Origin: the human T2T-CHM13v2.0 reference genome, Homo sapiens
Length of the DNA stretch: 64,000 nt
NCBI RefSeq assembly: GCF_009914755.1
Contig: NC_060935.1
Strand: one strand, 5' to 3'
Part shown: positions 28,863 through 32,167 of the stretch, in pieces
Numbering within the stretch: position 1 is the stretch's first letter
Layout: the number at the start of each line of letters is the position of its first letter
Made by a program: the position numbers and the translations under genes
The notes under the pieces: generated by a model
What the model was told of the DNA's origin: nothing
The model's database searches: none
What the model saw: only the letters and a program-made list of their open reading frames with translations

Positions 28863-29476
28863 AAGGGTGCTAAAAGGAAGACATGGTAACATCCTTAAAA
28901 TCTCTTAATTCTCACCTATGCTTGTGTCCCTTTACTATATACACACACACACACATATCTCTCTTAAGCCAGTTCTACTCAGACTTATAGTAAGTCAATG
29001 TGTCAGTTTATTGTTCGACAACTTAAAAAGAAGGTAGAGAATTTTTTTAAAGGCTCAGGAAAAAGTAATGTAATGATTGATTAGCTCAGAACTTCAACTT
29101 ATGAGAAAACCTTAAGGAACTGATGGGTTTTTGGTAATTAAAGGAAAGGCTAACTATACAGAAAATTATATATATATATATATATATATTTCTATATCTC
29201 CACTAGAGTCAAGTTTAACATGAAGAATGTGCAGGAGATAAAAAGTATTAATTTAAAAGGTATGTAACCTTTAATCTATCATTGAAGGAGGTTCTACAGA
29301 CTTTTTTTTTTTTCTTGGCTCGTGTAATGATCTTTAATGCGTATTGAAAAATTACTATTCTCAAGTAAGGATAATGTATATCTCAGGTCACTTACAGTCT
29401 CAAAGTTTTGTCAGTATACTTTAAAACAATCCTGCGAACAGATCTAGATTGAAGGAGACTAAAGAATCATGAACTC

Positions 29477-30336
29477 GAGGAGGCGCCGGGGCAGGCGCAG
29501 AGCTGGCAAGCACGTGGTGGGGCCCCTGAGGCGTGCATAGGGTCGCGCGCCTGGGAGCTTGTCGCTCGCGCGGTCCGGGAGGGAGGTTCGGCGGCGGGAG
29601 GCAGCATGTCGGTTGCAGGGCTGAAGAAGCAGTTCTACAAGGCCAGCCAGCTGGTCAGTGAGAAGGTCGGAGGGGCTGAGGGGACCAAGCTGGACGATGA
29701 CTTCAAAGAGATGGCGATGTCATCAGCAAGGCGGTGACGGAAATGCTGGCAAGGACCATCAAGTACCTGCAGCCCAACCCAGCCTCGCAGGCTAAGCTGA
29801 CCATGCTGAACGCGGTGTGCAAGATCCGGGGCCAGGTGAAGAACCCCGGCTACCCGCAGTCGGAGGGGCTCCTGAGCGAGTGCCTGATCCGCCACCAGAA
29901 GGAGCTAGGCAACGAGTCCAACTTCAGTGACGCACTGCTGGATGCCGGCGAGTCCATGAAGCACCTGGCAGAGGTGAAGGACTCCCTGGACATAGAGGTC
30001 AAGCAGAACTTCATTGACCTCCTCCAGAACCTGTGTGAGAAAGACCTGAAGGGGATCCAGCACCACCTGTAGAAGCTGGAGGGCCGCCGCCTGGACTTAG
30101 ACTAAAAGAAGCGGCAGGACAAGATCCCCGATGAGGAGCTGCGCCAGGCGCTGGAGAAGTCTGAGGACTCCAAGGAGGTAGCAGAAACCAGCATGCGGTC
30201 CTGGACACCGACATTGAGCAGGTGAGTCAACTCCCGGTCCTGGGGGAGGCGCAGCTGTACTACCACTGGCAGGCCTTGCAGATCCTAGACGAGCTGGCAG
30301 CGAAGCTCAAGCGCAGGATGCGGAAATCTTCCTCAC
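29477..30336 (+). pseudogene. SH3GL1 (endophilin A2) processed pseudogene, 5'UTR + N-BAR part, lacking the 3' part
   Basis: ATG 29606 [69 protein letters not shown]; intronless; frameshifting deletion ~29715; stops 30070-30072 and 30104-30106; ends at KRRMR.SS. Confidence 0.93.
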
Positions 30337-30376
30337 ATCAAATATTTGAAAACAAACTAGAAACTGTCCAACCGCA

Positions 30377-31802
30377 TTTCTACTGCGCCCGCCCGCAGAT
30401 GCAGTTTTCTCCGCACGTGCGCGCCTTCTCTCCTTCCCGCCCTCAGGGTCCACGGCCACCATGGCGTATCAGGGGCAGCAGTACCTGTGGCAGCATTGGC
30501 CTTTGCAGCGGCGGCAGCAGCACCAGGCTCTGCAGCGGCACCCCCCAGCGGCTTAAGCCATGGCGCTTCTCAGGGCATTCAGCAGCAGCGTTGCTGTAAC
30601 CGACAAAGACACCTTCGAATTAAGCACATTCCTCGATTCCAGCAAAGCACCGCAACATGACCGAAATGAGCTTCCTGAGCAGCGAGGTATTGGTGGGGGA
30701 CTTGATGTCCCCCTTCGACCAGTCGGGTTTGGGGGCTGAAGAAAGCCTAGGTCTCTTAGATAACTACCTGGAGGTGGCCAAGCACTTCAAACCTCATGGG
30801 TTCTCCAGGGACAAGGCTAAGGCGGGCTTCTCCGAATGGCTGGCTGTGGATGGGTTAGGCAGTCCCTCCAATAACAGCAAGGAGGATGCCTTCTCCGGGA
30901 CAGATTGGATGTTGGAGAAAATGGATTTGAAGGAGTTCGTCTTTGATGCCCTGTTGGGTATAGATGACCTGGAAACCATGCCAGATGAACTTTTGACCAC
31001 TTTGGATGACACTTGTGATCTCTTTGCCCCCCTAGTCCAGGAGACTAATAAGGAGACCCCCAGACGGTGAACCCAATTGGCCATCTCCCAGGAAGTTTAA
31101 CAAAACCCGACCAGGTTGCCCCCTTCACCTTCTTGCAACCTCTTCCCCTTTCCCCAGGGGTCCTGTCCTCCACTCCAGGTCATTCCTTTAGTTTAGAGCT
31201 GGGCAGTGAAGTGGATATCCTGAAGGAGATAGGAAGCCAGACTCCACTGCTTACGTTGCCATGATCCCTCAGTGCATAAAGGAGGAAGACACCCCTTCAG
31301 ATAATGATAGTGGCATCTGTATGAGCCCAGAGTCCTATCTAGGGTCTCCTCAGCATAGCCCCTCTACCAGGGGCTCTCCAAATAGGAGCCTCCCATCTCC
31401 AGGTGTTCTCTGTGGGTCTGCCCGCCCCAAACCTTACAATCCTCCTGGAGAGACGATGGTAGCAGCAAAAGTAAAGGGTGAGAAACTGGATAAGAAGTTG
31501 AAAAAAATGGAGTAAAACAAGACAGCAGCCACTGGGTACCGCCAGAAGAAGAGGGTGGAGCAGGAGGCTCTCACTGGTGAGTGCAAAGAGCTGGAAAAGA
31601 AGAACGAGGCTCTAAAAGAGAGGGCGGATTCCCTGGCCAAGGAGATCCAGTACCTGAAAGATTTGATAGAAGAGGTCCGCAAGACAAGGGGGAAGAAAAG
31701 GGTCCCCTAGTTGACGGTAGTCAGGAGCGTCAATGTGCTTGTACATGGAGCCTCTGCTGTAGCTGTGTGTTCCAATAAATTATTTTGTAGGGGGAAAAAA
31801 AA
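30377..31802 (+). pseudogene. ATF4P4: ATF4 processed pseudogene (full-length mRNA copy)
   Basis: ATF4 5'UTR with uORFs; ATG 30657 MTEMSFLSSEVLVGDLMSPFDQ..; DSGICMS degron; bZIP; frameshifts ~31060 and ~31220; TAA 31513-31515; AATAAA 31774; A tail; 18-bp TSD AGAAACTGTCCAACC(G/A)CA at 30359-30376 and 31803-31820. Symbol assigned from recalled locus position. Confidence 0.92.
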
Positions 31803-32083
31803 AGAAACTGTCCAACCACAGGAAAACAGCCTGGCAGATTCAAAGTTAGGCAAAAACCTTCAGACAGTAAACAGAGTCCTCATGGGCCCAAGGAGCATCC
31901 AGAAAAGGCACTTCAAAGAGGTGGGAAAGCACAGCACTAGGAAAGAACAGGATGCCCAGGCATTTGTGGACAACGCTGCCAAAGAAAAAAGGCTTGAGGG
32001 TCCAGCCCCGAGGGAGCTGGAACAGCCTCACATAGTGCAGGGGCCTGAGAAGGTAGCGGGAAACACCGTCTCCACCAAGCCTC
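31803..32083 (+). pseudogene. LRRC37-family exon fragment (continues the 30337-30376 piece split off by the ATF4 insertion)
   Basis: NSLA...[46 protein letters not shown] matches the recalled LRRC37A sequence. Confidence 0.85.
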
Positions 32084-32167
32084 TCTACAGACTTTTTATA
32101 AAACCATAAAGTATTGATGATAATGTAAAATCTTTTTTTTTTTTTTAGTAGGTATAAAAGTTCTATA

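What the first reader, a model, noticed from the sequence alone, without database searches (positions are those of the whole stretch)
29293..32097. Three-gene 'Russian doll' retro-insertion: a retrocopy of a retrocopy, polyadenylated on the opposite strand
Seen: an exact 14-bp TSD (TCTACAGACTTTTT, 29293-29306 and 32084-32097) brackets the whole cassette. The left end has poly-T (29302-29313) and ATTAAA on the minus strand ~19 nt from the tail, so the mobilised RNA ran on MINUS. Yet the SH3GL1 and LRRC37 homologies read on PLUS, and ~160 nt of non-SH3GL1 sequence (29314-29476) separates the tail from the SH3GL1 5' end. Inference: the template was not SH3GL1 mRNA but a transcript reading antisense through a pre-existing SH3GL1 pseudogene. 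From memory, SH3GL1 pseudogenes lie within LRRC37 duplicon copies on chr17. This would be second-generation retroposition exporting core-duplicon sequence to another chromosome.
Basis: partly seen in the sequence, partly recalled or inferred. Interest (0 to 1): 0.8.

Follow-up and report, generated by a model that had tools for sequence, protein, structure and literature searches.

The report
Antisense retrocopy carrying two older pseudogenes
A 2.8-kb block on human chromosome 11 is a LINE-1-made copy of an RNA that ran backwards through a chromosome 17 LRRC37B-type gene copy, and it carried along two older dead gene copies (SH3GL1 and probably ATF4), so those two are copies of copies.

Summary
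An exact 14-bp target-site duplication brackets 29307-32083. A non-templated T-run and a minus-strand ATTAAA 19 nt away sit at the left end. The target matches a LINE-1 nick site for a minus-strand RNA.

In the same genome, the 163 nt at 29314-29476 adjoin an SH3GL1 processed pseudogene in three chr17 LRRC37 copies. The chr11 SH3GL1 copy shares 21 derived substitutions with the two B-type copies and none with one alone. It is therefore a retrocopy of a retrocopy, made from an antisense transcript.

Two additions:
- **A 7-kb gap.** About 7 kb that separate the SH3GL1 piece from the LRRC37 exon piece on chr17 are missing here. The junction has no canonical splice sites on either strand, so I infer a reverse-transcriptase jump or a DNA deletion, not splicing.
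- **ATF4P4 was probably a passenger too.** Supplementary data of Dalton et al. 2026 show orangutan chr17 ATF4 retrocopies with the same insertion point and five shared derived characters. That paper calls them independent. The ATF4-bearing source copy is absent from T2T-CHM13.

I could not test the orangutan locus or an empty chr11 site directly. This is an ordinary mechanism in an unusually layered instance. Interest is modest.

The parts
29293..29306 (.). Left copy of the 14-bp target-site duplication of the whole cassette
   Evidence: Exact repeat of 32084-32097. On the minus strand the target reads TTAT/AAAAAG, which is TTTTT/AT on the nicked strand and resembles a LINE-1 endonuclease site (read).
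29307..29313 (-). Non-templated poly(A) tail of the mobilised minus-strand RNA: 7 A, or up to 12 if the TSD's T-run is counted
   Evidence: The chr17 source copies read CATTTGT at this place. Homology to chr17 starts at 29314.
29314..29476 (-). 163 nt of LRRC37 intron that form the 3' end of the antisense RNA. They hold the ATTAAA signal (29333-29338, minus strand) and the left TSD core (ATCATGAAC, 29466-29474) of the first-generation SH3GL1 insertion
   Evidence: 98%, 96% and 93% identical to chr17:31.57, 32.98 and 69.01 Mb. About 85% identical to LRRC37A-type copies that lack the SH3GL1 insert. A T/GT-rich stretch follows the cleavage point in the chr17 copies.
29477..30336 (+). 5' 860 nt of an SH3GL1 processed pseudogene (5'UTR plus exons 1-8 in part), copied second-hand from chr17; cut off at its 3' side
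   Evidence: Intron-less against the chr19 exons. It shares a 16-bp deletion and 21 substitutions with the two chr17 B-type pseudogenes, and a further 30 with all three chr17 copies. On chr17 the pseudogene runs on for another ~1.7 kb to a 15-A tail.
30337..30373 (+). Left piece of the LRRC37 coding-exon fragment. The junction with SH3GL1 is at 30336/30337. 30359-30373 is the left TSD of the ATF4 insertion
   Evidence: Matches chr17:32.99 Mb about 7 kb to the right of the SH3GL1 break point. No GT-AG or CT-AC at the junction. TSD.
30374..31802 (+). ATF4 processed pseudogene (ATF4P4), full length, with an 8-9-A tail
   Evidence: Intron-less against chr22 ATF4, 3.5% different. 28 of about 1400 aligned sites are ATF4P4-specific changes. 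Annotated and studied as ATF4P4.
31803..31817 (.). Right copy of the 15-bp TSD (AGAAACTGTCCAACC) of the ATF4 insertion
   Evidence: Exact repeat of 30359-30373. The human chr17 B- and C-type copies hold it once, uninterrupted.
31818..32083 (+). Right piece of the LRRC37 exon fragment; the 5' end of the retro-copied RNA
   Evidence: 95% and 94% identical to the chr17 B-type copies, 89% to the C-type copy, 87-88% to A-type copies. 11 derived states shared with both B copies. It lies inside a large exon that the chr10 processed retrocopy also holds.
32084..32097 (.). Right copy of the 14-bp TSD of the cassette

Best explanation
The block 29307-32083 is one LINE-1-mediated retrocopy of a polyadenylated RNA. 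That RNA was transcribed antisense through a chromosome 17 B-type LRRC37 copy.

The locus already held two first-generation processed pseudogenes in the sense orientation of LRRC37:
- a full-length SH3GL1 retrocopy in the intron upstream of a large coding exon;
- with about 80% confidence, a full-length ATF4 retrocopy inside that exon.

The antisense RNA ended at an ATTAAA signal 163 nt beyond the 5' end of the SH3GL1 pseudogene. LINE-1 endonuclease nicked chr11 at a TTTTT/AT site. Reverse transcription started at the poly(A) tail and copied the 163 nt plus 860 nt of antisense SH3GL1.

About 7 kb are then missing. I infer a template jump of the reverse transcriptase or a DNA deletion, either in the source copy or after insertion. 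Copying continues through 37 nt of exon, the ATF4 pseudogene and 266 nt of exon, and stops there by 5' truncation or at the RNA start. A 14-bp TSD was left.

**Timing (inferred).** The insertion happened after the orangutan split and before the gorilla split.

**Source.** The ATF4-bearing source copy is no longer in the human genome, but it appears to survive on orangutan chr17.

**Function.** The cassette needs none. Only its ATF4 part has been reported as weakly expressed.

**Shown:** the TSD, the tail, the strand, the chr17 origin, the branching order, and the lack of splice signals.
**Inferred:** the identity of the RNA, the cause of the gap, the passenger status of ATF4, and the date.
For: **Retroposition on the minus strand**
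- Exact 14-bp TSD.
- Non-templated T-run next to it, and a minus-strand ATTAAA 19 nt away.
- ATTAAA is kept in the chr17:69.01 Mb copy. It reads GTTAAA at 31.57 Mb and is disrupted at 32.98 Mb.
- No A-run at the right end.

**Chr17 origin**
- 29309-30336 aligns as one block to chr17:32986022-32987051 (95%), chr17:31566988-31568021 (95%) and chr17:69011655-69012727 (87%).
- 31795-32082 aligns to chr17:32994016-32994306 on the same strand, about 7 kb further on. The 69.0 Mb copy has the same layout.
- LRRC37A-type copies hold the 163 nt without SH3GL1, and show the empty site of the first-generation insertion.

**Branching order**
- SH3GL1 part, polarised by the chr19 parent: 30 sites derived in all four pseudogene copies, 21 in chr11 plus both B copies, 6 in the two B copies only, 19 in chr11 only, and 0 shared by chr11 with one B copy alone.
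- LRRC37 part, polarised by an A-type copy: 11, 6 and 7 in the corresponding classes, with 1 conflicting site.

**ATF4 as passenger.** Table S1 of Dalton et al. 2026 (PMC13587735) lists orangutan copies at ponAbe3 chr17:22.95 and 23.99 Mb.
- The first starts with the same 17-nt LRRC37 flank (16 of 17 identical) directly before the ATF4 5' end.
- That flank has CTAG, as on chr11, where 5 of 5 other human LRRC37 copies have TTAG.
- By my reading of the printed sequences, the orangutan copies share four derived changes with African-ape ATF4P4:
  - A>G in the 5'UTR;
  - V>G in DGLVSPS;
  - A>V in KKRAEQE;
  - C>A in the C-run after the ETNKE codons.
- Orangutan has no ATF4 hit on chr11. Human, chimpanzee, bonobo and gorilla do (Table S2).

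**Divergence and family history**
- chr11 differs from the extant human B copies by 4.1-4.8%, whereas the two B copies differ from each other by 2.4%. This fits a source paralogue or allele other than the extant ones.
- Giannuzzi et al. 2013 (PMC3530683; passages) report independent B-type expansions in human and orangutan.
Against: **ATF4 in the source**
- All three extant human chr17 copies have an uninterrupted ATF4 target site.
- The genome search found no second ATF4P4-like copy. It returned only ATF4P3, two chrX copies and the parent gene. The source must therefore have been lost, or never fixed, in the human lineage.

**Limits of the orangutan evidence**
- I saw only the first ~400 nt and the translations printed in a supplementary table (cells were cut).
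- I could not align them with a tool, nor see more than 17 nt of flank.
- By eye the first 400 nt of the orangutan copy differ from human ATF4P4 at about 30 positions. That is more than I expected for a split at or soon after the orangutan divergence.
- The authors of that paper read these copies as independent.

**Other open points**
- The 7-kb gap is not explained by splicing, so a second event has to be assumed.
- No evidence for an antisense transcript at the present-day locus was available here.
- The substitution counts cannot separate 'ATF4 before' from 'ATF4 after': 28 ATF4P4-specific changes in about 1400 sites, against 19 of 860 for the chr11 SH3GL1 branch.
- The genome search scored only 40 of 3350 first-look candidates, so diverged extra copies could have been missed.
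Confidence: 0.8

Rival explanations
1. Nested, not carried. The antisense LRRC37/SH3GL1 retrocopy landed on chr11 without ATF4. An ATF4 mRNA was then retroposed into it on chr11. The orangutan chr17 copies are an independent insertion, as Dalton et al. state.
For: - The three extant human chr17 copies have an empty ATF4 site.
- No other ATF4P4-like copy is found in T2T-CHM13.
- ATF4P4 has its own exact 15-bp TSD and A-tail, as any fresh insertion would.
- Divergence counts are compatible with either order.
- The published reading is independence.
Against: - It needs two full-length ATF4 insertions at the same nucleotide of paralogous LRRC37 sequence, with the same TSD start (16 of 17 flank bases identical).
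- It also needs four parallel substitutions in ATF4 and one in the host flank.
Confidence: 0.12
2. Orphan 3' transduction. The minus-strand RNA was read-through from a LINE-1 or SVA element lying in minus orientation to the right of the exon. It was mobilised in cis and 5'-truncated so far that no element sequence remains.
For: - It would explain why unspliced antisense genomic sequence was retroposed efficiently.
- The 5' end of the copy lies inside an exon with no sign of a transcription start.
- The mechanism is recalled from the LINE-1 literature, not read here.
Against: - In the extant human B-type locus, 105 of 203 six-frame ORFs were scanned (the longer ones, about 70 aa or more) across chr17:32990001-33017000. 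This covers about 23 kb to the right of the fragment. None gave a reverse-transcriptase, endonuclease or ORF1 domain. The only hits were 2 LRRC37AB_C and 2 weak DUF3915.
- No (CCCTCT)n or (AGAGGG)n run was found there.
- The transduced stretch would exceed 8 kb before the deletion.
- The true source copy is lost, so the test is indirect.
Confidence: 0.1
3. DNA-level event. The block is a small duplicative transposition of chr17 duplicon DNA, and the flanking repeat and T-run are incidental.
For: LRRC37 is a core duplicon that spreads by segmental duplication (Giannuzzi 2013; abstract and passages).
Against: - Exact 14-bp TSD.
- A non-templated T-run exactly where homology ends, 19 nt after a poly(A) signal.
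- A LINE-1-type target site.
- The block is only 2.8 kb, and Giannuzzi et al. place all duplicated copies on chr17.
Confidence: 0.02
4. Twin priming, or another inversion of a sense LRRC37B pre-mRNA copy, rather than an antisense RNA.
For: Twin priming is a common source of inverted segments in LINE-1-mediated insertions (search listing of bioRxiv 10.1101/2021.12.20.472354).
Against: - The order and relative orientation of the 163 nt, SH3GL1 and the exon are the same as at chr17:32.98 and 69.0 Mb, so nothing is inverted within the block.
- The tail follows a proper minus-strand signal.
- No sense-strand 3' end or A-tail is present.
Confidence: 0.02

Closest known systems
LINE-1-mediated processed pseudogenes / retrocopies
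   Same: TSD, 3' poly(A) after a poly(A) signal, an endonuclease-type target, and an end consistent with 5' truncation.
   Different: - The template is not an mRNA. It is an antisense, essentially unspliced transcript of a duplicon copy.
- Its content is two older retrocopies plus intron and exon fragments, all antisense to the RNA.
Chimeric retrocopies formed by reverse-transcriptase template switching (U6-L1 type; recalled from the work of Buzdin and colleagues, not read here)
   Same: Two non-adjacent source segments are joined in the same orientation inside one TSD, with one tail and no repeat or A-run at the internal junction.
   Different: - Both segments come from the same locus and strand, 7 kb apart. 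An intramolecular jump or a later deletion therefore fits as well.
- No small RNA is involved.
Orphan LINE-1/SVA 3' transductions (recalled)
   Same: Unique genomic DNA moved by retrotransposition, ending at a downstream cellular poly(A) site, with no element sequence retained.
   Different: No source element was found in the extant paralogue.
ATF4P4 as described by Dalton et al. 2026 (PMC13587735; sections 20, 24-26, passages and Tables S1/S2 read)
   Same: Same locus, same 15-bp TSD, same presence in human, chimpanzee, bonobo and gorilla. The paper notes that it lies directly next to an SH3GL1 retrocopy.
   Different: - The paper treats ATF4P4 as a direct LINE-1 retrocopy that arose on chr11 about 14.8 Mya, and the orangutan chr17 copies as independent.
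- Here the TSD is read as that of an older chr17 insertion, and the chr11 copy as second-generation.
- LRRC37 is not mentioned in the paper's main text (0 occurrences).
LRRC37E, the chr10 retrocopy of LRRC37 (Giannuzzi et al. 2013, PMC3530683; passages read)
   Same: LRRC37 sequence exported from chr17 by retroposition. It holds the same exon.
   Different: - LRRC37E is a sense copy. At the one intron I could check, the intron is removed.
- The chr11 fragment is antisense-derived, only about 300 nt long and B-type.
- The paper's main text describes no LRRC37 copy on human chr11. Its two 'chromosome 11' mentions are mouse Lrrc37 and a reference title.

Membership tests
LINE-1-mediated retrocopy (target-primed reverse transcription) | Target-site duplication flanking the insert | tested here: met
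   14-bp exact repeat at 29293-29306 and 32084-32097. 0 of 100 shuffles reach the observed count.
LINE-1-mediated retrocopy (target-primed reverse transcription) | Non-templated poly(A) at the 3' end of the copied RNA, downstream of a poly(A) signal | tested here: met
   7 T (up to 12 with the TSD) that are absent from the chr17 copies. ATTAAA lies 19 nt upstream on the minus strand. The tail is short.
LINE-1-mediated retrocopy (target-primed reverse transcription) | Endonuclease-type target (TTTT/AA-like) on the primed strand | tested here: met
   TTTTT/AT, read from the flank and TSD. The consensus is recalled, not looked up.
LINE-1-mediated retrocopy (target-primed reverse transcription) | Empty site in an outgroup species | not testable with these tools
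   No primate genome other than the window's own is held. Indirect only: there is no ATF4 hit on orangutan chr11 in Table S2 of PMC13587735.
Processed (spliced) pseudogene of an mRNA | Introns removed at canonical splice sites of the template strand | tested here: not met
   The only internal discontinuity (7 kb, at 30336/30337) has neither GT-AG on the plus strand nor CT-AC for a minus-strand intron in any of the three source copies. The SH3GL1 and ATF4 parts are spliced, but on the opposite strand and from earlier events.
Retrocopy of a retrocopy (second generation), SH3GL1 part | Carries flank and diagnostic changes of an older pseudogene, not of the parent gene | tested here: met
   The 163-nt chr17 flank is contiguous with it. 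51 derived sites and a 16-bp deletion are shared with chr17 pseudogenes, and 0 sites conflict.
Retrocopy of a retrocopy (second generation), ATF4 part | The same insertion, with its TSD, exists at the source locus | tested here: inconclusive
   - Absent from the three human chr17 copies.
- Present with the same flank on orangutan chr17 according to printed supplementary sequences, which I read by eye only.
Orphan LINE-1/SVA 3' transduction | A competent element upstream on the same strand at the source | tested here: inconclusive
   None was found in the ~23 kb to the right of the fragment in the extant human paralogue (scan of chr17:32990001-33017000). The true source copy is not available.
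Segmental (DNA) duplication of the LRRC37 core duplicon | No retroposition hallmarks; introns and flanks retained over kilobases | tested here: not met
   TSD, tail and poly(A) signal are present. Only 163 nt of intron and about 300 nt of exon are retained.

The most novel reading that the evidence does not exclude
The chr11 block is a fossil of an LRRC37B-type duplicon copy, or allele, that African apes have since lost. An antisense transcript exported it to another chromosome.

If so, ATF4P4, recently presented as an independently arisen, conserved and active ATF4 retrocopy, would be a second-generation, antisense-borne passenger. Its true birth would be an older chr17 insertion that still survives in orangutan.

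This would cut the number of independent ATF4 retropositions by one. It would move the origin of the ATF4P4 lineage to before the orangutan split. It would also show that antisense transcription across a core duplicon can seed its sequence on other chromosomes.
Probability: 0.7. Interest if true: 0.4.

Novelty: new member of a known kind. Interest (0 to 1): 0.35.

Why it matters
**Annotation.** Three separately annotated pseudogenes (LOC390251, ATF4P4, LRRC37A13P) are one insertion event. The LRRC37 piece is B-type, not A-type, by identity.

**ATF4P4.** Its origin and count in a 2026 study would need revision if the passenger reading holds. One retroposition event, not two, would underlie the African-ape and orangutan copies. 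The TSD used there as evidence of a chr11 LINE-1 event would belong to an older chr17 event.

**General lesson.** This is a clean, datable example that 'non-syntenic' does not mean 'independent' for retrocopies. It also shows that antisense transcripts can re-mobilise older pseudogenes. A sequence sample of a duplicon copy no longer present in humans is preserved here.

None of this changes any known mechanism.

Tried and rejected
- **Splicing as the cause of the 7-kb gap.** I inspected both strands at both break points in three source copies and allowed for shifted boundaries. No GT-AG, GC-AG or AT-AC pair fits. The junction has a 2-nt AT that may be filler or a remnant of ancestral exon sequence. 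Rejected.
- **A driving LINE-1.** I scanned 105 of 203 six-frame ORFs (the longer ones) across chr17:32990001-33017000, which covers about 23 kb to the right of the fragment. No LINE-1 domains were found.
- **A driving SVA.** A regex search of the same 27 kb found no hexamer runs.
- **Dating ATF4 against the host by substitution counts.** 28 of about 1400 against 19 of 860. Not discriminating.
- **Exon boundary at TTCTAG|GTAAC.** I first took this for the start of the exon. The chr10 processed retrocopy shows that the exon extends at least 360 nt further upstream, so I dropped the idea.
- **Literature.**
  - The three locus names returned 7 papers, 6 listed. Only Dalton et al. was relevant.
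  - LRRC37 + SH3GL1 + pseudogene returned 1 paper, on copy number in breast cancer.
  - SH3GL1P1 / SH3GL1P2 / LRRC37B returned 5 papers, none on origin as far as their titles and abstracts show.
  - The search on retrocopy / antisense transcript / processed pseudogene / second-generation listed 12 of 32 papers. I judged them by title and abstract only and opened none.
  - So 'not described before' rests on these four searches and on Giannuzzi's main text. That paper's Supplemental Table S1 and Note were not seen and may list the chr11 fragment.
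Full report
**1. The observation**

Reading 29100-32300 shows TCTACAGACTTTTT at 29293-29306 and again at 32084-32097.
- A pattern search with up to one mismatch finds these two exact copies and one one-mismatch copy at 6033. The expectation is 0.08 matches, and 0 of 100 shuffles reach three. 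The repeat finder reports the same pair (family D5).
- The T-run is 29302-29313.
- TTTAAT at 29333-29338 is ATTAAA on the minus strand, 19 nt from the run.
- There is no A-run at the right end.
- On the minus strand the empty target would read TTAT/AAAAAG, which is TTTTT/AT on the primed strand. This fits the LINE-1 endonuclease preference as I recall it.

All points of the observation hold.

**2. Where the pieces come from**

The window's own genome could be searched.
- **The 163 nt.** 29314-29476 match eight places besides themselves, all on chr17:
  - full length at 98%, 96% and 93%;
  - about 85% at three places that I take for A-type copies;
  - two partial matches at 93-94%.
- **The whole block** (40 of 3350 first-look candidates scored):
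  - 29309-30336 aligns as one uninterrupted stretch to chr17:32986022-32987051 (+, 95%), chr17:31566988-31568021 (-, 95%) and chr17:69011655-69012727 (-, 87%).
  - 31795-32082 aligns to chr17:32994016-32994306 (+, 95%), 31576784-31577076 (+, 94%) and 69004277-69004570 (-, 89%). It also matches many A-type copies, one place on chr4 and one on chr10, at 87-89%.
- **Layout.** At 32.98 Mb and 69.0 Mb the two pieces lie on one strand, in the same order as in the window, about 7 kb apart. At 31.57 Mb the SH3GL1-bearing piece is inverted relative to the exon.
- **First-generation SH3GL1 insertion.** Comparison with an A-type copy shows that the chr17 SH3GL1 pseudogene is a full-length 2.5-kb retrocopy with a 15-A tail and a short TSD (core ATCATGAAC). 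It is inserted in an LRRC37 intron in the sense orientation, and the 163 nt are the intron sequence just upstream of it.
- **The LRRC37 piece** lies inside a large coding exon. The chr10 processed retrocopy (LRRC37E of Giannuzzi et al. 2013) covers it, extends at least 360 nt further upstream, and lacks the 606-bp intron that follows the exon. The LRRC37AB_C domain is encoded just downstream. On the plus strand the window's piece is an open 100-codon frame.

**3. The ends of the RNA**

At the left end, homology to all three chr17 copies begins exactly at 29314. The seven T before it stand where chr17 reads CATTTGT, so they are not templated.

ATTAAA is intact in the 69.0 Mb copy. It is GTTAAA at 31.57 Mb and is disrupted by a small deletion and a substitution at 32.98 Mb. 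On the minus strand a T/GT-rich stretch follows the cleavage point in the chr17 copies.

So the template was a polyadenylated minus-strand RNA that is antisense to LRRC37, to the SH3GL1 pseudogene and to ATF4P4.

**4. Second generation: the SH3GL1 part**

I aligned the chr11 copy with the three chr17 copies and the chr19 exons. The chr11 copy has the 16-bp deletion and other indels of the two B-type copies. Binary site patterns polarised by the parent are as follows:

| Derived in | Sites |
|---|---|
| all four pseudogene copies | 30 |
| chr11 plus both B copies | 21 |
| the two B copies only | 6 |
| chr11 only | 19 |
| the 69.0 Mb copy only | 34 |
| 32.98 Mb copy only | 7 |
| 31.57 Mb copy only | 13 |
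| 31.57 Mb plus 69.0 Mb copies | 2 |
| chr11 plus one B copy alone | 0 |

The LRRC37 piece gives the same order with an A-type outgroup: 11, 6 and 7 in the corresponding classes, with one conflicting site.

The chr11 lineage therefore left the B lineage after the split from the 17q24 (C-type) copy and before the duplication that gave the 32.98 and 31.57 Mb copies. Pairwise differences are 4.1-4.8% between chr11 and the B copies, and 2.4% between the two B copies.

**5. The 7-kb gap**

The SH3GL1 piece stops at ...CTTCCTCAC (30336), whereas on chr17 the pseudogene runs on. The exon piece starts at CAAATATTTG, and two bases (AT) lie between.

None of the three source copies has GT...AG on the plus strand or CT...AC for a minus-strand intron at these points. 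A GT does follow the exon piece on the minus strand in two copies, but no AG precedes the SH3GL1 piece. The AT may be filler or a remnant of ancestral exon sequence, since the 69.0 Mb and chr4 copies read AT(G/C)C there.

I conclude that the gap is not an intron. The alternatives are a template jump of the reverse transcriptase, a deletion in the lost source copy, or a deletion after insertion. I cannot tell these apart here.

**6. ATF4**

ATF4P4 (30374-31802) is full-length and intron-less. It has an 8-9-A tail and an exact 15-bp TSD at 30359-30373 and 31803-31817.
- It differs from chr22 ATF4 at 50 of 1412 sites. Polarised by a chrX copy, 28 changes are its own, 22 are ATF4P3's and 14 are the parent's. 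It shares only 1 with ATF4P3.
- The human B- and C-type copies have the target uninterrupted.
- The genome search found no other ATF4P4-like copy.

On that alone I first read ATF4 as a later nested insertion.

The literature search changed this. It found Dalton et al. 2026 (PMC13587735). I read the abstract, sections 20 and 24-26, passages, and Tables S1 and S2 as held, with cells cut at about 400 nt.
- They find ATF4P4 on chr11 in human, chimpanzee, bonobo and gorilla. Orangutan has no chr11 hit.
- They list two orangutan chr17 copies about 1 Mb apart as independent, non-syntenic 'ATF4P4-like' copies.

The printed orangutan sequence starts with 17 nt that equal the window's LRRC37 flank at 16 positions, directly before the same ATF4 5' end. 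Its first four bases are CTAG as on chr11, where 5 of 5 other human LRRC37 copies read TTAG.

By eye, orangutan and African-ape copies share four derived changes against the parent, ATF4P3 and the gibbon copy (window checked):
- an A>G in the 5'UTR (CCCGCAG);
- V>G (DGLGSPS);
- A>V (KKRVEQE);
- a C>A inside the C-run after the ETNKE codons. The African-ape frameshift is that same state minus one C.

Two insertions at the same base with five parallel changes are far less likely than one insertion. I therefore read ATF4 as already present in the chr17 source, at about 0.8.

Giannuzzi et al. report that B-type copies expanded independently in human and orangutan. This leaves room for a source paralogue or allele that African apes lost.

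Against this reading:
- The human chr17 copies are empty.
- I could not run an alignment of the orangutan sequence.
- I saw only 17 nt of its flank.
- Its first 400 nt differ from human ATF4P4 at about 30 positions by my count, which is more than I expected.

**7. Date**

With ATF4 as passenger, the chr11 insertion falls between the orangutan and gorilla splits. The ATF4 retroposition itself falls before the orangutan split. The SH3GL1 retroposition predates the B/C split and differs from its parent by about 9%. These dates are inferences. No outgroup genome could be searched.

**8. What drove the RNA**

This is unknown. I tested the idea of an orphan LINE-1 or SVA 3' transduction on the extant human B-type locus (scan of chr17:32990001-33017000, about 23 kb to the right of the fragment).
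- 105 of 203 six-frame ORFs were scanned. They gave no LINE-1 domains, only 2 LRRC37AB_C hits and 2 weak DUF3915 hits.
- No SVA hexamer runs were found.

Because the true source is lost, this does not exclude the idea.

**9. Comparison with what is known**

The mechanism is ordinary LINE-1 retroposition. What is unusual is the template (antisense and unspliced) and the cargo (two older retrocopies).
- Giannuzzi's main text names only the chr10 retrocopy outside chr17 and no human chr11 copy. Its supplements were not seen.
- Dalton et al. note that ATF4P4 lies next to an SH3GL1 retrocopy. They never mention LRRC37 (0 occurrences) and do not see the outer TSD.
- Four literature searches found no description of the composite.

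**10. Verdict**

The block is a new, well-layered member of a known kind. Its main practical consequence is a correction to how ATF4P4 and the three neighbouring pseudogene annotations should be read.

Noticed in passing
window 31805-32091 (annotated LRRC37A13P): Despite the 'A13P' name, the fragment is B-type by identity: 94-95% to the 17q11 copies against 87-88% to the chr17:46-48 and 65.7 Mb copies, which I take for A-type. It also shares 11 derived sites with the B copies.
   Followed up: yes
L025/L026 (G000 chr17:31564001-31580000): In this B-type copy the segment with the SH3GL1 pseudogene and the 163 nt is inverted relative to the LRRC37 exon about 8.7 kb away. This differs from the 32.98 and 69.0 Mb copies. 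The inversion break points were not mapped.
   Followed up: partly
L033 (G000 chr4:106039001-106045000): An LRRC37 fragment on chr4 (81-89% identity) extends past the exon end into sequence that the chr10 processed retrocopy lacks. It is interrupted by about 2 kb of other DNA. It is not mentioned in the main text of Giannuzzi et al. 2013, and its mode of origin is unexamined.
   Followed up: no
L021 around 3040-3060 (G000 chr17:32986040-32986060): The antisense ATTAAA signal used by the retro-copied RNA is disrupted in this copy by a small deletion and a substitution. It reads GTTAAA at 31.57 Mb and is intact only at 69.01 Mb.
   Followed up: partly
L022 about 4005-4120 (G000 chr17:32994005-32994120): The chr11 fragment keeps one open frame through this part of the exon. 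The chr17:32.98 Mb copy needs a frame change here: a 1-bp difference at GT(G)TAGGC and a 2-bp difference at GGC(AA)AGATTC. Whether this copy is the coding LRRC37B gene was not checked.
   Followed up: no
window 29166-29197: A (TA)n microsatellite lies about 100 bp to the left of the insertion site.
   Followed up: no
window 32136-32150 and 32167 onward: A 15-T run, and then a plus-strand Alu-like element, lie just to the right of the cassette. The Alu-like part matches many genomic places at 86-91%. They are not part of the insertion.
   Followed up: no
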